Below, one piece after another: positions 1 to 51,776 of a DNA stretch of 64,000 nucleotides. The translations under genes and the position numbers were made by a program. The number at the start of each line of letters is the position of its first letter. Position 1 is the first letter of the stretch. Location of the stretch: positions 233-64,232 of the forward strand of contig JABDDM010000004.1 in the NCBI GenBank assembly GCA_013287605.1, given 5' to 3'. The stretch is from Ignavibacteria bacterium. Its GTDB lineage: Bacteria > Bacteroidota > Ignavibacteria > Palsa-1295. The notes beneath the pieces were generated by a model. It was not told where the DNA came from. It saw only the letters and a list, made by a program, of their open reading frames with translations, and did not search any database.

Positions 1-400
1 TATTGTTTTCCATCTTCATTGCCTCAAGAACCAGGAGGGTGGTATCTTTCTCGATCATGTCCCCAATGGCAACTTTGATCGATCGAACCAACCCTGGCAT
101 CGGAGCTTTGACGATGACAGGGCCAGTCAGCCCAGCACTTTTGCCATTTCCAAGCGTGGATGAGAATCGCTCACGAATTAGGGCCTCACGCGAGGAGAGT
201 ACCGTGATCGAGACATTATCGAGTTTGTTGCCATCACTTAGTGTGCCCTGACCGCTTACATAGATCTCCTGGACATGATGGCCCGCTCGGACTAGATAAG
301 CGCCACCCCCAAGGGCGATGACTTCCGCAATCGCGACCTCGTCAGGCATGTCGATCTCCGTTGGTTCTTCGGAAAGAAGAACCTGTAGCTTTTGCGCCAT
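1..400 (-). CDS. biotin/lipoyl-attachment domain protein (biotin carboxyl carrier-like); 3' end runs off the window
   Basis: Absent from the ORF track because no stop lies in the window. Reverse translation from ATG (398-400) gives MAQKLQVLLSEEP...VKAPMPGLVRSIKVAIGDMIEKDTTLLVLEAMKMENN. EAMKME is the classical biotinyl-lysine motif. The start overlaps the upstream stop (TGATG). Confidence 0.75.
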   Translation of the reverse strand, partial: MAQKLQVLLSEEPTEIDMPDEVAIAEVIALGGGAYLVRAGHHVQEIYVSGQGTLSDGNKLDNVSITVLSSREALIRERFSSTLGNGKSAGLTGPVIVKAPMPGLVRSIKVAIGDMIEKDTTLLVLEAMKMENN

Positions 401-1692
401 CAGAAGAAAATGTGCGTTTGCAGCAGCATTGTCATTTGCGAGTGATCCTCTCTGAGCGTTACTACACCTGTTGGCACAGAAAGTTTTGCAAAGCGAATTT
501 CCGGTCTGAACTCGACGAACCGAATTGGAAACCACTGTAAGCCGCCCGTAATGCGATCCTTCACTTCTGTCCCAATATTTCCAGTGCCGTCTTCATCTTT
601 GTATGTTTCAAAACGCACCAGAGCTGTAAGCCCTTCCGTAATGTCGCCAGTAGCTTCAATCGCGAGCGCGCTTACCTTTGGCAGAGTCTGCAGAACCTGT
701 GTCGGAATATTCTTCCCAAAATCGGCCTCGGCAAGGATGGAGATTGGACCTACGCGCAACCCACCATGAACTGCGGCGACAGAGAGGTTCCGAGTTGAAT
801 CTGCTCCGGTTGAACTTACAAGAGAATGCGGATGCAAATAATAGGATCCTCCAACTTCAATTGACACCATATCAGGTACCAGCTCCGTGGCATATACACC
901 GCGAAATGCCATCGCCATACGGTTCGTCGTGTCTCCGTCAAACGTAGCACCCTGGCGATACTCAAGACCTTCGAAGTAGCCTGCGGTAATTTGGACATGG
1001 TCGAATAATGTAACCCCTAGCTCTGCACCGAGATCCTTGTAGCTCGGTTTCCAAAACAATCCATCCTGGCCAAACCGAGAGAGCGTCCCATCGCCACCTC
1101 GAGTGTACGCAGTGTGGTCATCAAAGCGCACACCGAAGTTTGGCATGAAGTCGCCGATCTTAAGGTAGGCATCAGTAAAGGCATCATTTGCGAGAAAGAT
1201 CTCTCCGCTATTATGGACAAAATGGACCTGGCCAAATGCCTCGTAGGCGCTAGGTGTGAAGAAATCGTATCTCGCGTAGAACGACGTACTCTGCGTTAAT
1301 TGGGCTGCAACGTAAACTGGAAGAGCCATAGCCTGCAGCGTCTTGAGCGTTCGTGTATTCGTTAGGAGGCCGCCGGTTGAATCAGGCGTCGACGTTTTGT
1401 CCTGGAAGAGGAGCGCCTGCGAACGATAGTCCAATCCGATTCGAATTCCTTCTGTTAACTGGCTCGTGAATTTACCAGCAGTCTTCCACATCGGCAGTTT
1501 GTTGATCTCAAAACTCTGCCCGCCAGCAGACCGGAGTCCCTGGCCAGTTGGATTGACATGGCACCCCATACAATTGACCTCGGCGTGCCTCAGGGCATAC
1601 CGAGGAAGCGCAGAGGATTCTTGCGAAAAGGCTACGAAAAACACAACTAAGATGAGAGAGAAAGAGACGTGATGGCGAATGGTGATTTTCAT
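400..1692 (-). CDS. outer-membrane beta-barrel with N-terminal single CXXCH heme c motif (Cyc2-like fused cytochrome-porin candidate)
   Basis: Signal peptide MKITIRHHVSFSLILVVFFVAFSQ. The only two Cys of the protein form CMGCH (aa 41-45, nt 1558-1572). The rest shows an alternating amphipathic strand pattern and ends in ...QTHIFF, an aromatic OMP terminus. Confidence 0.6.
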   Translation of the reverse strand: MKITIRHHVSFSLILVVFFVAFSQESSALPRYALRHAEVNCMGCHVNPTGQGLRSAGGQSFEINKLPMWKTAGKFTSQLTEGIRIGLDYRSQALLFQDKTSTPDSTGGLLTNTRTLKTLQAMALPVYVAAQLTQSTSFYARYDFFTPSAYEAFGQVHFVHNSGEIFLANDAFTDAYLKIGDFMPNFGVRFDDHTAYTRGGDGTLSRFGQDGLFWKPSYKDLGAELGVTLFDHVQITAGYFEGLEYRQGATFDGDTTNRMAMAFRGVYATELVPDMVSIEVGGSYYLHPHSLVSSTGADSTRNLSVAAVHGGLRVGPISILAEADFGKNIPTQVLQTLPKVSALAIEATGDITEGLTALVRFETYKDEDGTGNIGTEVKDRITGGLQWFPIRFVEFRPEIRFAKLSVPTGVVTLREDHSQMTMLLQTHIFF

Positions 1693-1765
1693 GCTTAAGA
1701 AAAAGTTTAAGCAAAAATAGTACGAACTTCAACCAATTGACACGAAAGCCTCGCCTCCTGATACC

Positions 1766-2716
1766 TTACAAGGAGGCTGGTTCAACTCTTAACAACCCAC
1801 GACAGACGGTAACATCGCGCTCGATCTGTTCGCGAAGCTCGATCAGCGAAGCAAAGGCTTGCTGGTTTCGAATAAGCTCAATGCATTCGACGGAGATCGT
1901 GGCGCCATATATATCCTCGGCAAAATCAAGCAAGAATACTTCTACTTGTCGCTCAAGATCTTTTCCAACAGTAGGACGATTACCGATACTCAGAGCGCCC
2001 GCGAACGATCTACCTCGAACGTTGACTCGACAACAATAGACACCATCACCAGGCAGAAGCTTCTCCTCGGCAACCTTCAAGTTGGCCGTTGGGTAACCGA
2101 GGGTTGTTCCAATGCGGTCGCCTAAGACGACAACACCGTTGAGCTCGTAGTGACGACCCAGGCAAGTGTTCGCTGTTACAAGGTCACCGTTGAAAAGCGC
2201 ATTACGAATTCGGGTCGAACTGATATTCATCCATTCCGAAAGGCAAGGGGCAACCTCATAGATAGGGACTTCGAATTTTTTGCCGAGCTCCTCCAGATGT
2301 GTTGTATCGCCCTCTCGGTTCTTACCGAAGGCATGGTTGAAGCCAACTACCATTGCCTTCGTATTGAGTTGTTTCAGCAGAATAGATTCGAAAAACTCGA
2401 CATAGGTCTTCTTCGAGAATTCAGGCGTGAACTTGATGACGACCACCTCATCGACGCCGGTTTTGGATAGAAGTTCAAGACGCTCATCGATCGTAGTCAA
2501 GAGCTGAACCGATGAATCATGTTTTCGAAGAACTTGCTGGGGATGCGGGTGAAAGGTTACAACCACCGAGCGTGCAATCCCAAGCTGCCTTTGATGCTCA
2601 AGCAACTCTTCGATGATCTTAATGTGGCCCAGATGCACCCCATCAAAGCTACCAAGCGTCGTGATCGAGCTCAAGCTCGAATCGATGTTGTCCAGTCCCC
2701 AAGTTACTTTCACCAC
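1766..2716 (-). CDS. ribF: bifunctional riboflavin kinase / FAD synthetase
   Basis: GSFDGVHLGH nucleotidyltransferase motif and a GYPTANL kinase-domain motif. 316 aa with a GTG start, located downstream of truB. Confidence 0.9.
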   Translation of the reverse strand: MVKVTWGLDNIDSSLSSITTLGSFDGVHLGHIKIIEELLEHQRQLGIARSVVVTFHPHPQQVLRKHDSSVQLLTTIDERLELLSKTGVDEVVVIKFTPEFSKKTYVEFFESILLKQLNTKAMVVGFNHAFGKNREGDTTHLEELGKKFEVPIYEVAPCLSEWMNISSTRIRNALFNGDLVTANTCLGRHYELNGVVVLGDRIGTTLGYPTANLKVAEEKLLPGDGVYCCRVNVRGRSFAGALSIGNRPTVGKDLERQVEVFLLDFAEDIYGATISVECIELIRNQQAFASLIELREQIERDVTVCRGLLRVEPASL

Positions 2717-22810: not shown

Positions 22811-25800
22811 TTAGAATCGAAGTGCGACGTTCAAGAAGAAACGGCGCGGTGCCTGGTAATTGGTGCGGCGAGCGAATCGATCGTGGCGAAGTAGATCGTA
22901 CATCGTCTGCTGCTCGGCAAGCGAGACCTTCCCATCGTGGTTGAGATCAGCACGGGGATTGTAAAGCAATTTCCCGAGCGGATCGTACTGCGGTCCAAAC
23001 ATCTGGATGATCGCGTTCGTCGGGTTATTATAGAATTCCTGTGTCGCCAACAACTTGTTGTTAGAACCGTCATCATCGCCCTGACCCGTCTGCGCATACA
23101 CGCGGATAGGCTCTGTGCGATTGAAGAGGTTCGTCACTTCGAGCGTTAAGTCGAGGAAGAAATTCTTCATACCCTCACCGAAGATATCACCAAATGGTAT
23201 CGTGCGTGTAAGCTGAGCGTCGGTCTGAAAGTAGTCGGGCTGACGTTCCGCGTTGAACTCGCCAATTTGCACGCCCTTTTGATCAAGACGCGTGTAAGGC
23301 GTACCAGTCTGGTACTCGGTCGTCGAGGATAGCGAAATGTTCTGAAGAAGTTTTGTACCGAATATTGTCGGTCCCTCACCCTTTTGGAAATTCAGGTTGA
23401 AGATGAACTGTGCTACATGTGTACGATCATAGTCCAGTGCGAATGGCTGCAGCGGCAGGACTGCATTCTCAGAATTCGGATTCGCGTTGAGGAGCAATTG
23501 GTAATTTGAAACGGCCGATGAGGATGTTCCTTTCGCGACAGAGTATGTGTAATTTAGTCGCGCAGAGAAGTTATTCGACATCCGCTTATCCATCGTCAAC
23601 TGCAAACTCCGAACATTGCCGTACTGATCATCAGAGTAGATCGTGTAAGCAATCGGGAGCAACGGTCCGCTGATTTGCTGCAATCCCGTATGATTACGGA
23701 GATCCTTGTAGATCCCTTCAATGCTCACCGCAAATACGTCGCTAAGCTGGGTATTGAAGCCAACGGTAATTTCTTTCGTCCGCTCTGCTTTCAGCGCCCC
23801 GTTACCAATAATCTGGTTACCTCGAGCGAATACCTGTTGAAGATTGCCACTTGTATTCGACAACACGTCTGTTAACAGTGGCTCCTTGAAATACCAGCCG
23901 TAGTTAAAGTTAAACGTGGTCTGTTCGGTAACGGCGTATGTGATACCTAAGCGCGGGCTCAATTGCGTCTGGATCGGTGCGGTGCCCACGTTATACGTCG
24001 TCACAGTGTCAATCTTATGCGTGATGCTGTTCAAGACATAATTCGTGTGGAACGGATCGAACAGATTCGTGATATTGCGATCTGAGCCCGGACTATAATA
24101 ATCGAAGCGGACGCCAGGAGCAAAGGTGATATCTGCAAACTCCATCTTATCTTCAACGAAGACATCACCATAGCTTGGTCTCACATCGAACGAGTCCTTA
24201 AACGGGTTCGCATCCCAGGGTAACTGGTTCGAAGTACTCGCTACGTGCCAGAAGTGACCCTCTACCCCTCCATTTAATAAGTGCGCTCCAACCTGCTGAG
24301 TGTAGTTACCGTCGAACTGAATCTGCTGGCGCTGATCGAACGTGTAACCGCCCGCATTGCCGGCAGTGGCAAATTGATTGTATAACCCATACGAATTTGC
24401 CGTTGTTTGAGTGATGAGTGGACCCTCAATATGCCCGGTGAGCGGATTAATGCCGGCGCTTGTAAGCGTCTTTACCTGCGCAGGATTCGTTGGATCAGGG
24501 ATCTGTCGCGAGACTGGAGCGTAGATGTCAATGATCCCATCAGGTCCAGGGGTCAGAATATGATTGTTATCGTCGTAGGTGTACTTATCAGTTGGAGTGT
24601 ATATATTGTACAACGAGAACAAACCGCCAGTGTGCGAATGATCATACTTACCCTCGTCGAATGTCTTTGTAAGATAACTTAGGTCGAACTGAAGAACACC
24701 CTCCCCGATCTGCTTATTGCCACCCAACGTATAAAGATTATTGAGCTCATTGCTAGCGGTTAGATTCGCCGGGTCCGCATAATAATAGAAAACGTCGTTG
24801 TATTGCCGGCTGTCAGAACCAATGGCAACATCCGCATTAAGATTGAATCCAAGCAGTCCAAAAGTCAATTTGCCGGTGACCGTTCGGTAGATGTGGCTCC
24901 GATTTGGAAGTTGACCAGCAGTATTGCCAACCGGGTCGCGCACATCTAATCCCTCGTTGACATATATGGGGGTCGTAAAATAATTGTCGAATTCACGGGT
25001 GTTCCCTTTGGCGGTGATATAGTATTTCAACTCATCGGTAAGCGGACCACCCAAAGCAACTTCGTAGATCTTGTCGTTCTGTCCCAACTGCCTGTAGCCA
25101 TTGCTCGAATAGCCAAACAACGCGGGAAGATCCTGGCGATAGTTGAACAGAAATTCGAAGGCTTCTCCGCCTGCTTTAGTTGTGGAGTTTGCCATCCCAC
25201 CGGTGAAATTTCCATACTTCGCACCTGCGCCTGCAGAGACGACATTAATTTCGGATATTGCAAATTTCGAAAGACCGTTTTGAAGCGCACTCGTATGGCC
25301 GTCAACTGGATCGACCGTTTCCTGACCGTTGATGCGAATCGAGTTAGATGTGCCGCGGCTACCGTTAAAGCTTAGTCCGCCATTCGTAGCATCAGTATAG
25401 ACACCAGGGGTTAGACGGATGATTTCATCAAGACGTTGACGACCAGGCGTATTCACAACATTTGAGGCCGTGAATTTTCGGCCCACATCGGTCGTAGTCT
25501 TCGAAACCATGATCTTCTCGGTCGATACGATGATCGTGTCGACATCGGAATTCGTTAGTTTGAAGGTCAGGGTAGTCGTTTCGTCGGAAAGGACCTTCAC
25601 ATTGGAGATGGTCTGAGGCTTGTACCCAGCGTACTTTGCCATCACATGATAGCCCTCACTCGGTGCAACGTTTATAATCGTCGCGAAGCCGTCATCTTTG
25701 GTATAGGCACCCTGCTTGGTCTCAATGACCTGGACGGTAGCGCGTACCAGCGCTTCTCCCGTTTTCGCATCGACGACCTTAGCACGGATCTTACCCGTTT

Positions 25801-40125: not shown

Positions 40126-41823
40126 ATGAATCGAATTGTTTCTCTCGGGCTACTCGCTTTACTGCTACTGACTTCGTGTGGAAAAAAGAGCGCGACACAC
40201 ACGCTTCGCGAAGGCAAAGGCGGCAAAAAACTTGGTGGGACCTTCTACACCAACGAAACCGGAGATCTTCGCTCGGTCGATCCTCCGCAGAATAACGACG
40301 AAACAAGCTCGCATATCTCTGAAAGTCTTTACAATGGCTTGCTGGAATTCGATCAGAACTTGAATGTGATCCCCTGTCTTTCGCAGATCCCCGAAGTATC
40401 GGCAGACGGATTGACATACACCTATCACTTACGCTCGGACGTCTATTACCATGATGATCCCTGCTTCGCAAATAGCAAGGGCAGGAAGTTCGTGGCGCAG
40501 GACGTTGTCTACTGCTGGTCGCGTGCACTCGATCCCAGCACGAATACGCTTGCACTCCCCTATTTTCAGGTGATCGCCGGAGCCAACGAATACTTTAAGA
40601 GCGGGGCGACGCTTGCTGGTGGCGTTGTAGGTCTGAAAGCACCGAATGATACGACGTTTGTCGTGACGCTCGTCAGGCCGTTCTCGCCATTCTATTATTA
40701 CCCGATGCTTGGCTGCGCTTATATCTACCCACACGAAGCGATCGAAAAATACGGGAAGGACTATGCACATCACGGTGTCGGTACCGGACCATTCCAGTTT
40801 GTCGAGTACAAAGAAGGTCAGTACTGCATGGTTAAGCGAAACCCACACTATTGGGAGCATGACGCAGAGGGCAATCAACTTCCCTATCTCGACTCGATCA
40901 AGTACAGCTTCATGAAAGAAACGAAGGCGGAGTTGCTAAGCCTCGAGCAGAATTCACTTGACCATGTTTACCGCATTCCAAGTGAATTCTATAAAGATGT
41001 CGTCGATGAGAATAAGCACGCCAAGGGCAAGTACGCCAAGTATCAGGTGTTGCATATTCCCGCGATCGCCAGCCAATTTTACGGCTTCAATACGCGCGAT
41101 GGAGTTTCAAACGTTCACTTACGCCGCGCGTTTGCGTTTGCCATCGATCGCAACAAGATCATCAAGTACGTGTTGCAAGGGCAGGCTGCAGAGCCTGGAG
41201 AGCATGGTATCGTACCGCCATCGATGCCAGGCTATCCGTTTAAGACGGTGACAGGTTTCACATTCAATCTTGATTCCGCGAAGGCCGAACTCGAATTGGC
41301 AAAGAAAGAACTGAAGGGTCAGCTTCCCGATCTTACGCTGCAATACAACACGGGCGGCGGGCGAAATGAAGACGTCGCACAGGCGATCCAGTCGCAGTTG
41401 CAATCAAATCTTGGGATAAAGATCGGTCTGCATCAGGTCGAATGGGCACAGCACACAGCGATGATCGACGAAGGAAAGGCAAAGTTCTTTCGATTGGGAT
41501 GGATCGCAGATTATCCGGATCCGCAGAATTTCCTGAATCTGCTTTATGGAAAAAATATTCCGGCAACCGGGCCGAGTTCGATCAACTCAACTCGCTACAG
41601 CAACCCCGAATTTGATAAACGCTATGAAGCCGCAATTGCGGCGACGGACCGTGCTGAGGTCAACAGAATCTGGGCGGAGGCCGAGAGTATCGCAATGCAC
41701 GATGCTCCAATGCTCGTCATCTACTACGATGAAGATTATCACATCCTTCAACCCGATGTGAAAGACTTCCCGCTAAACGCGATGAACCGCCTGGTGTTCA
41801 CCCATACGTGGTTCAATGATTGA
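40126..41823 (+). CDS. ABC transporter substrate-binding lipoprotein, family 5 (peptide/nickel type)
   Basis: Lipobox LLLLTSC. Family-5 SBP-like sequence (ESLYNGLLEFD..., RLGWIADYPDPQNFL). No cognate permease or ATPase gene is adjacent. Confidence 0.85.
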   Translation: MNRIVSLGLLALLLLTSCGKKSATHTLREGKGGKKLGGTFYTNETGDLRSVDPPQNNDETSSHISESLYNGLLEFDQNLNVIPCLSQIPEVSADGLTYTYHLRSDVYYHDDPCFANSKGRKFVAQDVVYCWSRALDPSTNTLALPYFQVIAGANEYFKSGATLAGGVVGLKAPNDTTFVVTLVRPFSPFYYYPMLGCAYIYPHEAIEKYGKDYAHHGVGTGPFQFVEYKEGQYCMVKRNPHYWEHDAEGNQLPYLDSIKYSFMKETKAELLSLEQNSLDHVYRIPSEFYKDVVDENKHAKGKYAKYQVLHIPAIASQFYGFNTRDGVSNVHLRRAFAFAIDRNKIIKYVLQGQAAEPGEHGIVPPSMPGYPFKTVTGFTFNLDSAKAELELAKKELKGQLPDLTLQYNTGGGRNEDVAQAIQSQLQSNLGIKIGLHQVEWAQHTAMIDEGKAKFFRLGWIADYPDPQNFLNLLYGKNIPATGPSSINSTRYSNPEFDKRYEAAIAATDRAEVNRIWAEAESIAMHDAPMLVIYYDEDYHILQPDVKDFPLNAMNRLVFTHTWFND

Positions 41824-49876: not shown

Positions 49877-50341
49877 GTGGATACATCGACCGCATATGGC
49901 ATCGAAGCCGGGCGTGCGCTTGATCTTTGGACGAAGCTGGCACGCGCGTTCACGACGTTTAACAAATTGACCATCAAGGATATTTCTGCGTATGGATTAA
50001 CACAGCCGCAGTTCGCTGTGCTTGAAACCATCGGACATCTTGGCCCGATGACCATCGGACTGCTCTGCAAGAAGATGCTGGTCTCCGGTGGGAATATGAC
50101 CGTGGTGTTGGATAATCTCCAGCGTGAAGGTCTGGTTGAGCGGGTAACAAATAAAGATGACCGTCGCTCTATCGAGATACGCTTGAGTGCGGAAGGCACA
50201 AGGCTGTTTAGCGAGATCTTCCCCAAGCATGCGAGTTATGTCGCGAATATCGCGAAGGTTCTCACGCCTGAAGAACAACGTGATCTTGCCGCAATGCTAA
50301 AGAAGCTTGGTACCTCATTGTCAGAAAGATTTGACGGCTGA
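49877..50341 (+). CDS. MarR family transcriptional regulator
   Basis: Winged-helix region LTQPQFAVLETIGHLGPMTIGLLCKKMLVSGGNMTVVLDNLQREGLVERVTNKDDRRS. GTG start. Divergent from the patatin-like gene. Confidence 0.85.
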   Translation: MDTSTAYGIEAGRALDLWTKLARAFTTFNKLTIKDISAYGLTQPQFAVLETIGHLGPMTIGLLCKKMLVSGGNMTVVLDNLQREGLVERVTNKDDRRSIEIRLSAEGTRLFSEIFPKHASYVANIAKVLTPEEQRDLAAMLKKLGTSLSERFDG

Positions 50342-51776
50342 TTTCAAACCTTTCCTTCTTCGATTCATCCGATCTATCAGCAGCGGCACGATCGAGAATA
50401 CAAGCCCGGCATACATCGGCTCCATTCCCCACAAGTACTGAGGCGAGACCGCATCGCCACGAGTTACCCCAAGGAGGTAAGCTGTGAGCGATCCCGAGAG
50501 TCCCAGCACCGTACTCCAGAATGCAGCCTTGGGACTGGGACGCCATTTGGGGAAATAGCTTAATGTTAGCGGGAAGAGAATCGCTGGCACCATGATCGAT
50601 CCGAGCGCATACCAGATCAAATAGATCTTCGGCGTGATCTGAATTATGACAAACGTAACAATCGCGGTGATAAGCAATCCGTAGCGAGTGAACCGCGTGA
50701 TCTTCGTAACATCTCCATACCCAAACAATCGCCAAAGGATATCATGACCTACAATCGTAGCGCTTGTAAACGTGAAGGCATCGACCGCACTCAATTCGGA
50801 TGCGAGTAAGCCAGTGTAGAATACACCTTTGAGTCCCATCGGCAGCACACGTTCTGCGAGCGCTGGATAGGCGAATCGACTTTCAGGAAGCGAGGCGAAT
50901 GCCGCTCTGGCATAAAGCCCCGCAAGATTCGTCATCAGATCAAAAACCAGCCAGCAGCCAACCGAGATAATCAATCCCCACTTCGCGACCTGGGGCTTCT
51001 TTGCAGCAAACACTCGCGTGTTCACATTCGGATCGACGAGCGTGCTAAGCGCAATGATGTACCACACAGCGATGTACCACGGACTAAGCCCGCCTGTCGG
51101 CTTCAAATGACCCGGCGGAACGTGTGATACAATAAAACTCCAACCACCAAATGTTTGGTAAGCGTATGGCAGAACCACTGCAAAGCCGAAGAACATTGTC
51201 AGGAAGCGCAGCGAATCTGCCCGCACAGGTGCTCGCAAACCGCCCATCAGCAGATACGGTAATGGAGTAACGACCGCAATGATCATCCCTAATGTCGTAT
51301 TGATTCCAAAAAAACCACTGATACAGCGTGCCCAGCGTCATGATATATCCAGCAGGACTCGTCAGGAAGAAGACGATTCCTGCACCAAGATAGCCCGTAC
51401 GCTCCCCGTAGGTTGATCGCAGGCGATCAGGAATGGTCGCATTCGCACGATCGCTGTTAACTCTGTGCGCCAGAAAGAACGCGAAAAGAAGTGCTGCGGC
51501 ATAATAAGGTATGCCGAAGACAACCCACATCACGATTCCTTTATCATACGAGAACTCGCCAACGCCAAGCACTCCGCCATACCACATCGTGACGAGAGTC
51601 GCGACGAATGCAGGTATTGTCAGCGTTCGACCGGCGAGGATAAAGTCTTCTGCATCGCTCTTGGGCTTATGCCGGCGAACGGTGATGAAACCGATGAGTG
51701 AATTGGCAGCGATATAGAAAATGATGATCGCAAGATCGAGTCCGCCTAAATGTGGCGTGAGCGAAGTTGACATCAT
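50321..51776 (-). pseudogene. sodium:solute symporter (SSS) family transporter interrupted by a 1-nt frameshift
   Basis: Track ORFs 51084-51776 and 50321-51286 are the N- and C-terminal parts of one SSS protein. Removing one base from the A7 run at 51308-51314 gives the continuous sequence ...LYQWFFGINTTLGMIIAVVTPLPYLLMGG... (about 484 aa). Confidence 0.75.

What the first reader, a model, noticed from the sequence alone, without database searches (positions are those of the whole stretch)
400..1765. Cyc2-like fused monoheme cytochrome-porin, translationally coupled to a biotinyl-domain protein
- **Sequence:** the 430-aa protein has a signal peptide, and its only two cysteines form CMGCH (nt 1558-1572) about 15 residues after the predicted cleavage site (context LPRYALRHAEVNCMGCHVNPTG). 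About 380 aa of beta-barrel-like sequence follow, ending in ...HIFF.
- **Family:** signal peptide, one CXXCH and a porin of ~400-450 aa is the defining architecture of Cyc2. Cyc2 is the outer-membrane Fe(II)-oxidising fused cytochrome-porin of Acidithiobacillus, Zetaproteobacteria and Gallionellaceae, with homologs reported in Chlorobi.
- **Context:** here it sits directly behind the rimP-nusA-infB-rbfA-truB-ribF block.
- **Possible promoter:** TATTTTTG at 1712-1719 on the minus strand fits the Bacteroidota -7 consensus TAnnTTTG. I found no properly spaced -33 element.
- **Coupling:** the stop overlaps the start (TGATG) of a biotin-carrier-domain gene, an unexplained pairing.
- **Implication:** if real, it points to extracellular electron exchange in this lineage.
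Basis: partly seen in the sequence, partly recalled or inferred. Interest (0 to 1): 0.62.

Follow-up and report, generated by a model that had tools for sequence, protein, structure and literature searches.

The report
Cyc2-like cytochrome-porin, divergent sister family
This gene encodes an outer-membrane pore fused to a single-heme cytochrome; it is a distant relative of the bacterial iron-oxidising protein Cyc2 and belongs to a large, unnamed sister family that fails Cyc2's defining motif, so its substrate and electron direction are unknown.

Summary
A 430-aa ORF (window 400-1692, minus strand) has a signal peptide, only two cysteines (CMGCH), about 350 aa of beta-barrel, and a TGATG overlap with a biotinyl-carrier gene.

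CXXCH is present in all 117 full-length homologues examined. AlphaFold gives a 16-strand barrel (pLDDT 82), and its best PDB matches are OprP, OprO and PorB.

Profile comparison with 89 proteins carrying the published Cyc2 motif shows remote homology over both domains (hhalign 98.5%, E 2.5e-15). One canonical-motif protein (L122) matches the family HMM end to end at 58 bits.

It is not Cyc2 in the strict sense:
- It has ALPRYALRH instead of AXPXFAR[Q/K][T/Y], and VNPTGG instead of PXL.
- It falls outside all canonical groups in a tree.
- It scores 11-25 bits on my canonical HMMs, against 23-150 bits between canonical groups.

It belongs to a large unannotated family (1,035 50%-identity clusters at E<=1e-10) found in Ignavibacteria, Kapabacteria, Nitrospirota and Eisenbacteria. 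The family has its own near-invariant residues (M122, D192-H193, His four residues from the C-terminus).

The biotinyl pairing is clade-limited synteny, and the proposed promoter is no better than chance. Fe(II) oxidation is plausible but untested.

The parts
400..1692 (-). ORF of 430 aa (stop TGA at 402-400): fused monoheme cytochrome-porin, divergent Cyc2-like family
1609..1692 (-). Signal peptide, aa 1-28 (MKITIRHH / VSFSLILVVFFVAF / SQESSA). Cleavage is inferred after A28, so the mature protein starts LPRYALR
   Evidence: Read from the sequence. AF2 helix 7-21. The same position of the conserved (A)LPRF motif directly after the signal peptide in all homologues. No SignalP run.
1585..1611 (-). 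ALPRYALRH (aa 28-36): family version of the Cyc2 AXPXFAR[Q/K][T/Y] motif. A, P, aromatic and A are kept; R, Q/K and T/Y are not
1558..1572 (-). CMGCH (aa 41-45), predicted covalent heme c attachment site. These are the only two Cys in the protein
1447..1608 (-). Short cytochrome segment (aa 29-82) including the family signature CH-VNPTGG-x-R (P48, G50, R54 invariant). AF2 confidence is low, as expected without heme
403..1446 (-). Beta-barrel, aa 83-430; 16 strands in the AF2 model
1036..1146 (-). Long loop between strands 5 and 6 (aa 183-219), in the position of porin loop L3. It carries the most conserved block of the family: F.PNFG.R.DDHTAYTRGG
   Evidence: Its identity as L3 and its location in the lumen are inferred.
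1114..1122 (-). D191-D192-H193 (gat gac cac). H193 is kept in 112 of 122 and D192 in 102 of 122 wide-family representatives. Candidate distal heme ligand or cation site (inferred)
1327..1329 (-). M122, kept in 113 of 122 wide-family representatives. Candidate axial ligand (inferred)
412..414 (-). H427, His at position -4 from the C-terminus. Present in 116 of 122 wide-family representatives and never the majority residue in canonical Cyc2
398..402 (-). TGATG: the stop of the cytochrome-porin gene shares one base with the start of the next gene
2..400 (-). 5' part (133 codons; runs off the window) of a cytoplasmic biotinyl-carrier-domain protein with EAMKMEN. A neighbour by synteny; not shown to be part of the system
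1712..1719 (-). TATTTTTG, proposed Bacteroidota -7 element. Not conserved in relatives; a chance-level match
1766..2716 (-). ribF (FAD synthetase/riboflavin kinase), last gene of the upstream rimP-nusA-infB-rbfA-truB-ribF block. A syntenic anchor in Kapabacteria-like relatives

Best explanation
The ORF encodes an outer-membrane protein in which a very short monoheme c-type cytochrome segment (aa 29-82) is fused to a 16-strand porin (aa 83-430). It belongs to a large, unannotated sister family of the Fe(II) oxidase Cyc2.

**Proposed mechanism**
1. (Inferred) The protein is exported by Sec and the signal peptide is cut after A28.
2. (Inferred) A periplasmic cytochrome c maturation system attaches heme to C41 and C44, with H45 as the proximal ligand.
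3. (Inferred, by analogy with the Cyc2 model) The heme segment sits at or in the periplasmic mouth of its own barrel.
4. (Inferred) Family-specific conserved residues on the barrel complete the heme pocket and/or form a cation site. These are M122, the loop-3 block D191-D192-H193, and H427 four residues from the C-terminus.
5. (Inferred) Single electrons then pass across the outer membrane between a small soluble extracellular redox species, most plausibly Fe2+/Fe3+, and periplasmic carriers.

Direction and substrate are not known.

**Shown here:** the architecture, conservation of the heme motif, the porin fold, remote homology to Cyc2 over both domains, and the distinct family signature.
For: **Heme motif and family**
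- CXXCH and the flanking (A)LPRFALR...CxxCHVNPTGGxMR are conserved in all full-length homologues.
- They are also conserved in 122 of 122 wide-family representatives.

**Fold**
- AF2 gives pLDDT 82 and pTM 0.81, with 16 strands from aa 83 to 429.
- Top Foldseek PDB hits are the 16-strand porins PorB, OprP (2o4v) and OprO (4rjw), at E about 1e-11. OprO and OprP are the templates Keffer et al. report for Cyc2.

**Remote homology to canonical-motif Cyc2 proteins (signal peptides removed)**
- hhalign over the whole protein: Prob 98.5%, E 2.5e-15, 326 columns.
- Cytochrome part alone: E 9.8e-9. Porin part alone: E 1.8e-9. Reversed and column-shuffled controls score P 0.1-0.9.
- The motif upstream of CXXCH alone gives P 5e-5.
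- The canonical-motif protein L122 matches the family HMM end to end at 58 bits.
- Wider-family members carry intermediate motifs such as PRYAARYGQxC.

**Context**
- In two loci a c-type cytochrome gene lies directly upstream on the same strand: L130 (dihaem, 135 aa) and L131 (Cytochrome_P460-like, 542 aa).
- In L129 a VIT1 iron transporter gene lies directly downstream.
Against: - There is no biochemical evidence for any member of this family.
- The window holds no cytochrome c maturation gene (no CcsA-like WWD motif) and no other credible cytochrome, so heme attachment in this organism is unverified.
- The AF2 model has low confidence exactly at the heme segment and at D192-H193.
- The family fails both Cyc2-defining motifs.
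- In most loci the gene stands alone with no redox partner nearby.
- Its carriers are mostly organoheterotrophic lineages, and in Kapabacteria-like genomes it sits in a vertically inherited housekeeping neighbourhood. That fits lithotrophic Fe(II) oxidation poorly.
Confidence: 0.62

Rival explanations
1. It is a bona fide Cyc2 (clusters 1-3): a dedicated Fe(II) oxidase that feeds electrons from dissolved Fe2+ into a respiratory chain.
For: - It has the same architecture and length class, and remote homology over both domains.
- Cyc2 homologues have been reported in Ignavibacteriaceae MAGs (PMC6344600; PMC8478452).
Against: - The defining motif AXPXFAR[Q/K][T/Y] and the PXL motif are not met (ALPRYALRH; CH-VNPTGQ).
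- The family is monophyletic, on a long branch, and outside all canonical groups. Identity to canonical Cyc2 is 15.5%, against 23.5% among canonical Cyc2 proteins.
- Group HMMs give the window protein 11-21 bits, whereas canonical groups score 23-150 bits against each other.
- Canonical-motif Cyc2 proteins exist as separate proteins in Kapabacteria and Ignavibacteria MAGs (L018, L038, L044, L064). These may be what earlier surveys counted.
Confidence: 0.08
2. It belongs to the same protein family as in the best explanation, but its physiological role is iron handling or electron export rather than energy-yielding Fe(II) oxidation. Examples are reduction of extracellular Fe(III) or humics for assimilation or anaerobic respiration, or redox conditioning of iron at the outer membrane.
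For: - Carriers include Ignavibacteria, a class with known Fe(III)- and humic-reducing organoheterotrophs.
- In Kapabacteria-like genomes the gene sits at a fixed, vertically inherited position after ribF.
- A VIT1 iron transporter gene lies directly downstream in L129.
- Two additional conserved His residues (H193, H427) could give bis-His ligation, which generally lowers heme potential (general knowledge of heme ligation).
Against: - Only one locus has an iron-transport neighbour.
- There is no expression or phenotype data.
- The ligand assignment is a guess.
Confidence: 0.2
3. It is an ordinary diffusion porin whose CXXCH does not bind heme (a metal-binding or disulfide motif).
For: - The fold matches general and phosphate porins.
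- There is a weak Pfam BBP2 porin hit (E 0.0056, below cut-off).
- No maturation genes are seen in the window.
Against: - CXXCH including the His is invariant in all full-length members.
- It lies at a fixed distance from the mature N-terminus, as in Cyc2.
- The upstream motif is homologous to the Cyc2 cytochrome motif.
- Relatives in class Ignavibacteria make c-type cytochromes (PMC5492636).
Confidence: 0.07
4. The cytochrome-porin and the biotinyl-domain protein form a functional unit, as the translational coupling might suggest.
For: - The stop and start overlap in TGATG.
- The two genes are adjacent in four related loci: L001, L002, L127 and L128.
- The biotinyl proteins are orthologous at 45-53% identity.
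Against: - The biotinyl protein has no signal peptide and carries a canonical EAMKMEN biotinylation site, so it is a cytoplasmic carboxyl carrier.
- The pairing is absent in L005, L126 and in every Ignavibacteria, Nitrospiraceae and Eisenbacteria locus examined.
- The whole block nusA...ribF-X-biotinyl-glycosyltransferases-Wzy is simply syntenic.
Confidence: 0.03

Closest known systems
Cyc2 fused cytochrome-porin (Acidithiobacillus ferrooxidans Cyc2; Mariprofundus ferrooxydans Cyc2 PV-1; clusters 1-3 of McAllister 2020 and Keffer 2021)
   Same: - Signal peptide, then a conserved motif that starts at the mature N-terminus (A-x-P-x-aromatic-A).
- One CXXCH about 10-11 residues after the Pro.
- A 16-strand porin, with 360-450 aa in total.
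- Profile-profile homology over both domains.
- A bridging sequence, L122.
   Different: - FAR[Q/K][T/Y] is replaced by [FY]A[LA]R-x.
- PXL is replaced by [VI]NP[TS]GG-x-R.
- One extra residue lies before the first Cys in the Kapabacteria-like subgroup.
- The barrel is much better conserved (40% identity against 23%), with near-invariant polar residues (R90, M122, D192-H193, R198, E224, E322, His at -4) that canonical Cyc2 lacks.
- It forms a separate long-branch clade.
- Its function is untested.
Cyt572 of Leptospirillum (Cyc2 cluster 3 representative)
   Same: An outer-membrane monoheme cytochrome fused to a barrel, very divergent from other Cyc2 proteins (from PMC8406198).
   Different: It is still counted inside the Cyc2 tree through the shared motif. 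No direct comparison was possible because no Cyt572 sequence was to hand.
OprP/OprO phosphate porins and PorB/OmpF general porins
   Same: - The 16-strand barrel fold (Foldseek E about 1e-11, TM about 0.5).
- A long loop between strands 5 and 6 with a P-x-F-G motif that recalls the porin L3 PEFGG motif (my recollection; not tested).
   Different: - These porins have no N-terminal heme segment.
- There is no significant sequence similarity: PDB sequence searches found nothing.
Porin-cytochrome complexes (MtrCAB, MtoAB, PioAB, Geobacter Omb/Oma/Omc)
   Same: They are outer-membrane electron conduits that combine a barrel with c-type heme.
   Different: - Those are separate polypeptides with multiheme cytochromes and larger barrels.
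- Here a single heme and the barrel are one 430-aa chain.

Membership tests
Cyc2 sensu stricto (Keffer 2021 / McAllister 2020, clusters 1-3) | N-terminal signal peptide | tested here: met
   The sequence shows n-, h- and c-regions ending SSA|LP. AF2 places a helix at 7-21. The conserved motif starts right after the signal peptide in all homologues. SignalP was not run.
Cyc2 sensu stricto (Keffer 2021 / McAllister 2020, clusters 1-3) | Single CXXCH near the N-terminus | tested here: met
   CMGCH at aa 41-45, the only Cys residues in the protein. Conserved in 117 of 117 full-length homologues.
Cyc2 sensu stricto (Keffer 2021 / McAllister 2020, clusters 1-3) | AXPXFAR[Q/K][T/Y] motif upstream of CXXCH (PXFAR[Q/K][T/Y] was used as an inclusion filter) | tested here: not met
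   The window has ALPRYALRH. A, P, the aromatic and A match. R is replaced by L, Q/K by R and T/Y by H, and there is one extra residue before the Cys.
Cyc2 sensu stricto (Keffer 2021 / McAllister 2020, clusters 1-3) | PXL motif a few residues after CXXCH | tested here: not met
   The window has CH-VN-PTG. The family consensus is CHVNPTGGxMR. Canonical proteins have P 94% and L 98% at the motif positions.
Cyc2 sensu stricto (Keffer 2021 / McAllister 2020, clusters 1-3) | At least 365 aa with a 16-strand porin | tested here: met
   430 aa. AF2 gives 16 strands. Foldseek top hits include OprP and OprO.
Cyc2 sensu stricto (Keffer 2021 / McAllister 2020, clusters 1-3) | Recognised by Cyc2 cluster HMMs / falls inside clusters 1-3 | tested here: inconclusive
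   FeGenie's HMMs were not available. My own HMMs from 89 canonical-motif proteins give 25 bits (all groups together) and 11-21 bits (per group), against 23-150 bits between canonical groups. The NJ tree puts the family outside all canonical groups, but distances are saturated.
Cyc2 sensu stricto (Keffer 2021 / McAllister 2020, clusters 1-3) | Fe(II) oxidase activity / suitable heme potential | not testable with these tools
   Needs expression and biochemistry.
Cyc2 superfamily in the broad sense (homologous fused cytochrome-porins) | Statistically supported homology over both the cytochrome and the porin parts, in the same order | tested here: met
   hhalign 98.5%, E 2.5e-15, 326 columns. Each domain is significant on its own and controls are negative. 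The bridging sequence L122 scores 58 bits end to end.
c-type cytochrome | Cytochrome c maturation system present in the genome | not testable with these tools
   No CcsA-like WWD motif in the six-frame translation of the 64-kb window. Class Ignavibacteria is documented to make c-type cytochromes (PMC5492636).
Pfam BBP2 (OmpL-like porin, PF07642) | Score above the gathering threshold (26.2 bits) | tested here: not met
   16.4 bits, E 0.0056, aa 278-430 only.
Porin-cytochrome complex (Mtr/Mto/Pio type) | A separate multiheme periplasmic cytochrome gene next to a large porin gene | tested here: not met
   This is one chain with one heme motif. No multiheme gene is nearby in the window.

The most novel reading that the evidence does not exclude
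The 'NPTGG' cytochrome-porins are a distinct, widespread class of outer-membrane redox protein, with at least 1,000 clusters at 50% identity in Ignavibacteria, Kapabacteria, Nitrospirota, Eisenbacteria and others. Their heme would be ligated or gated by barrel residues (H193 on loop 3, M122, His at -4). This would give them a different potential and a different job from Cyc2, for example electron export or a non-iron substrate. Current Cyc2-based marker surveys, which filter on PXFAR[Q/K][T/Y], would miss a whole branch of extracellular electron exchange.
Probability: 0.3. Interest if true: 0.75.

Novelty: new variant of a known kind. Interest (0 to 1): 0.55.

Why it matters
Cyc2 is the main genetic marker used to infer microbial Fe(II) oxidation from genomes and metagenomes.

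This work shows a large, consistently unannotated sister family with the same fused architecture. Every named member seen is called 'hypothetical protein'. Pfam and NCBIfam hit neither this family nor canonical Cyc2.

The family has a different signature and a much more conserved barrel. The published motif filter would exclude it, and cluster-level HMMs score it weakly.

If these proteins carry heme and move electrons across the outer membrane, then Ignavibacteria and Kapabacteria, which are abundant in sediments, soils, aquifers and anammox reactors, and several other phyla have an unrecognised route of extracellular electron exchange.

The family's extra conserved His and Met residues also offer a natural experiment on how a porin lumen tunes a single heme.

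Tried and rejected
- **Curated libraries.** Pfam, NCBIfam and PDB sequence searches on the protein and on its family profile gave nothing usable. The 8e5f hit at E 0.64 covers only the signal peptide and CXXCH, so it is chance. Calibration showed that canonical Cyc2 proteins also hit nothing in Pfam or NCBIfam, so 'no hit' carries no information.
- **Printed Cyc2 sequences.** The supplements of Keffer 2021 hold only identity tables and figure legends. A full-text search for motif strings returned German 'Infarkt' papers.
- **Pseudo-motif profile.** A profile I wrote myself from the published motif, partly from memory (A3), returned only 49-86 aa fragments, apparently because hits come back in the query's length range. 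I used them only as real N-terminal examples.
- **The search for related loci.** I replaced it with a back-translated motif scan of genome contigs.
- **Rotation control.** Rotating the porin alignment as an off-register control was uninformative, because local alignment simply re-found the true register. Reversed and shuffled controls were used instead.
- **Promoter.** TAnnTTTG is not conserved in relatives, and there is no sigma-70-like site in the intergenic region.
- **ribF stop hairpin.** Folding of the ribF-gene spacer is not better than shuffles (z -0.99).
- **Maturation genes.** None are found in the 64-kb window.
- **Other CXXCH ORFs.** The three other ORFs with CXXCH (24950-25372, 41122-41403, 50265-50741) have no Pfam family and may not be genes.
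- **Heme geometry.** AF2 coordinates are not exposed, so distances between the heme segment and H193, M122 or H427 could not be measured.
Full report
**1. The observation**

- The minus-strand ORF at window 400-1692 encodes 430 aa, starting MKITIRHHVSFSLILVVFFVAFSQESSALPRYALRHAEVNCMGCHVNPTGQGLR and ending QTHIFF.
- It has exactly two cysteines, both in CMGCH (aa 41-45, nt 1572-1558).
- Its stop TGA (402-400) shares one base with the ATG (400-398) of a downstream ORF that runs off the window. That ORF matches Pfam Biotin_lipoyl (E 2e-7) and several biotin carboxyl carrier models.
- Upstream on the same strand lie rimP, nusA, infB, rbfA, truB and ribF. Pfam confirms five of them. The infB ORF and its IF-2 orthologues in syntenic loci cover the sixth.
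- The proposed -7 element TATTTTTG is present (1719-1712, 27 nt before the ATG). However, it is a six-specified-base motif, it is absent from the equivalent upstream regions of four relatives, and no sigma-70-type site is found there. I treat it as chance.

**2. A conserved family**

- A search of 5.8 billion proteins gave 289 hits, and every one that carries a name is called 'hypothetical protein'.
- One group of 420-450 aa proteins at about 45% identity comes from MAGs labelled Kapabacteria or Bacteroidota. A second group of about 375 aa proteins at about 30% identity comes from Ignavibacteria.
- Of the 120 hits listed, 117 carry CXXCH at the same place, embedded in (A)LPRFALRxGxxCxxCHVNPTGGxMR. 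The three exceptions are N-terminally truncated gene calls.
- An alignment of 58 members (A1) has 28 invariant positions. These include P30, C41, C44, H45, P48, G50, R54, M122, D192, H193 and H427, plus a striking block G.F.PNFG.R.DDHTAYTRGG.
- A profile search of 1.84 billion 50%-identity representatives found 286 representatives at E<=1e-30, 1,035 at E<=1e-10 and 2,289 at E<=1e-3.
- Named examples of the wider family come from marine Nitrospiraceae, Nitrospirota, Eisenbacteria, Deltaproteobacteria and Ignavibacteriales. Again all are 'hypothetical'.
- The following are kept across 122 full-length representatives of the wide family:

| Residue(s) | Kept in |
|---|---|
| C41, C44, H45, G50 | 122 |
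| R54 | 120 |
| R90 | 118 |
| M122 | 113 |
| H193 | 112 |
| R198 | 113 |
| E224 | 116 |
| His at position -4 from the C-terminus | 116 |

**3. Fold**

- AlphaFold2 with A1 gave mean pLDDT 82 and pTM 0.81.
- The model has 16 beta strands between residues 83 and 429 and a 37-residue loop between strands 5 and 6.
- Confidence is low only in the signal peptide, around the heme motif (41-51) and at 192-199.
- Foldseek against the PDB returned 241 hits at E<=1e-3. The top hits are the 16-strand porins PorB, OprP (2o4v), OprO (4rjw, 4rjx) and OmpF-type porins.
- OprO and OprP are the structures Keffer et al. 2021 report as the structural match for the Cyc2 porin (PMC8406198).

**4. Is it Cyc2?**

*The published definition.* Keffer et al. 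define the family by signal peptide, one CXXCH, a 16-strand porin, a consensus AXPXFAR[Q/K][T/Y] before CXXCH and PXL after it. They filtered their tree on PXFAR[Q/K][T/Y] and a length of at least 365 aa.

*Building a reference set.*
- No Cyc2 model exists in Pfam or NCBIfam. Canonical proteins from Sideroxydans, Acidithiobacillus and Kapabacteria MAGs also hit nothing.
- I therefore back-translated the published motif and scanned one genome per GTDB species.
- These loci include Mariprofundus, other Zetaproteobacteria, Sideroxydans, Gallionellaceae, Acidithiobacillus and Nitrospira defluvii.
- They also include Kapabacteria (L018), Melioribacteraceae (L038, L044), Ignavibacteriaceae (L064) and Marinilabilia salmonicolor (L021).
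- From these loci I extracted 89 full-length proteins.

*Results in favour of homology.*
- An HMM built from the 89 proteins scores the window protein at 25 bits and other family members at 17-46 bits, mostly collinear over the full length.
- With signal peptides removed, hhalign of the two alignments gives Prob 98.5%, E 2.5e-15 over 326 columns.
- The cytochrome part alone gives E 9.8e-9. The porin part alone gives E 1.8e-9. Cross-domain, reversed and column-shuffled controls give P 0.1-0.9.
- After deleting CXXCH itself, the upstream A-x-P-x-F-A...G stretch alone still gives P 5e-5.
- One canonical-motif protein, L122 (PNFARKYGLACTSCH, a Bacteroidetes MAG), matches the family HMM end to end at 58 bits.
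- Many wide-family members have intermediate motifs such as PRYAARYGQxC or PRFAARTGxxC.
- Homology to Cyc2 is therefore well supported.

*Results against strict membership.*
- The window protein has ALPRYALRH, with L for R, R for Q/K and H for T/Y, and one extra residue before the first Cys. It has VNPTGQ where PXL should be.
- In a neighbour-joining tree the 58 family members are monophyletic on a long branch outside all canonical groups.
- Mean identity is 15.5% between the family and canonical Cyc2, 23.5% among canonical Cyc2 proteins and 40% within the family. These distances are saturated, so placement is only indicative.
- Group-specific HMMs score other canonical groups at 23-150 bits. 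They score the family at a median of 7-12 bits and the window protein at 11-21 bits.
- Canonical Cyc2 proteins conserve little beyond glycines in the barrel and have no His at -4.
- I conclude that this is a divergent sister family of Cyc2, not a member of clusters 1-3.
- The Cyc2 homologues reported in Ignavibacteria MAGs (PMC6344600, PMC8478452) may be the canonical-motif proteins that co-occur in these classes. I could not check this.
- I found no paper describing this family.

**5. Context**

- The order nusA-infB-rbfA-truB-ribF-[cytochrome-porin]-[biotinyl protein]-glycosyltransferases-Wzy is kept in four Kapabacteria-like loci (L001, L002, L127, L128).
- In those loci the two genes are separated by a few bases, abut, or overlap, and the biotinyl proteins are orthologous (45-53% identity, EAMKMEN).
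- In L005 the gene is still near ribF but has no biotinyl neighbour. In L126 only a ribF remnant is left.
- In Ignavibacteria, Nitrospiraceae and Eisenbacteria loci the gene stands alone in unrelated neighbourhoods.
- The biotinyl protein has no signal peptide. The coupling is best read as compact, inherited gene order.
- Two loci have a c-type cytochrome gene directly upstream on the same strand: L130 (135 aa, two CXXCH, CytoC_RC) and L131 (542 aa, Cytochrome_P460).
- One locus (L129) has a VIT1 iron transporter gene directly downstream.
- These are weak but coherent hints of electron transfer and iron.

**6. Mechanism**

*Shown.*
- A secreted protein with an invariant heme c attachment motif 13 residues from the mature N-terminus.
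- Fusion to a 16-strand porin.
- Homology to Cyc2 over both parts.

*Inferred.*
- Heme is attached in the periplasm.
- The roughly 55-residue heme segment sits at or in the periplasmic mouth of its own barrel, as modelled for Cyc2.
- The strand 5-6 loop is in the position of porin loop L3, which in classical porins folds into the lumen. It carries P-N-F-G and D191-D192-H193.
- The alternation of a terminal beta strand should put H427 (-4 from the C-terminus) facing the lumen at the periplasmic end, next to strand 1.
- H193, M122 or H427 are therefore candidates for the sixth heme ligand. The Asp-Asp-His cluster is a candidate cation site.
- Electrons would pass one at a time between a small extracellular redox species, most plausibly iron, and periplasmic carriers.
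- Direction and substrate are open.
- The lineages involved are mostly organoheterotrophs, and the gene is vertically inherited in Kapabacteria-like genomes. This makes classical lithotrophic Fe(II) oxidation less likely than a more general redox or iron-handling role.

**7. Limits**

- No RNA data exist for this gene.
- FeGenie's own HMMs were not run.

**8. Verdict**

The biotinyl coupling and the promoter are not meaningful.

The gene is one member of a large, uncharacterised sister family of Cyc2, which I class as a new variant of a known kind. Interest is moderate (0.55). It rises to about 0.75 if the family proves to have distinct heme chemistry or function.

Noticed in passing
L018 (Kapabacteria MAG), L038 and L044 (Melioribacteraceae), L064 (Ignavibacteriaceae), L021 (Marinilabilia salmonicolor MSL42), and several Bacteroidales MAGs: Canonical-motif Cyc2-like proteins of about 390-400 aa (AIPAFARKY...C..CH...P.LK.YGDEFAGNGF) form their own Bacteroidota-type group. 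One is in a cultured Marinilabilia, which is not known as an iron oxidiser.
   Followed up: partly
L122 (Bacteroidetes MAG FW215_bin.12), 400-aa protein: It has the canonical PNFARKYGLACTSCH motif yet matches the NPTGG-family HMM end to end at 58 bits. It is a bridging sequence between the two families. In the NJ tree it groups with three Acidobacteria proteins (L028, L061, L062).
   Followed up: partly
L130:4508-4915 and L130:3116-4453: Directly upstream of a family member (P0112) lies a 135-aa dihaem cytochrome (CytoC_RC hit). Before that is a 445-aa secreted protein with no Pfam family whose sequence ends in an aromatic residue, like a beta-barrel. This may be a small electron-transfer gene cluster.
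   Followed up: partly
L131:3315-4943 (Tara Oceans Nitrospiraceae contig): A 542-aa Cytochrome_P460-domain protein gene lies 58 nt upstream of a wide-family member (P0243) on the same strand.
   Followed up: no
L129:6236-7345: A VIT1-family iron transporter with an N-terminal ferritin-like region is encoded about 100 nt downstream of an Ignavibacteria family member (P0052).
   Followed up: no
Proteins P0284, P0304, P0331, P0341, P0349; also P0351 (583 aa) and P0341 (506 aa): Some wide-family representatives carry a second CXXCH about 25-30 residues after the first (dihaem variants). Some have long N-terminal extensions.
   Followed up: no
L080 (Zetaproteobacteria MAG contig): Two canonical Cyc2-motif matches lie 3.3 kb apart on the same strand, so the genes are in tandem.
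   Followed up: no
window 1745-1775 (minus strand): A 7-bp GC-rich hairpin (GCCUCCU...AGGAGGC) spans the ribF stop codon. Folding of the whole ribF-gene spacer is not better than shuffles (z -0.99).
   Followed up: yes
window 24950-25372 (+), 41122-41403 (-), 50265-50741 (-): These three other ORFs contain a CXXCH but have no Pfam family. They may be spurious ORFs or small unannotated cytochromes.
   Followed up: partly
Downstream of the biotinyl gene in L001, L127 and L128: A conserved block of a GT4 glycosyltransferase-methyltransferase fusion, two further glycosyltransferases and a Wzy-type polymerase follows. The cytochrome-porin therefore sits between a translation-factor operon and a surface-polysaccharide cluster.
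   Followed up: no
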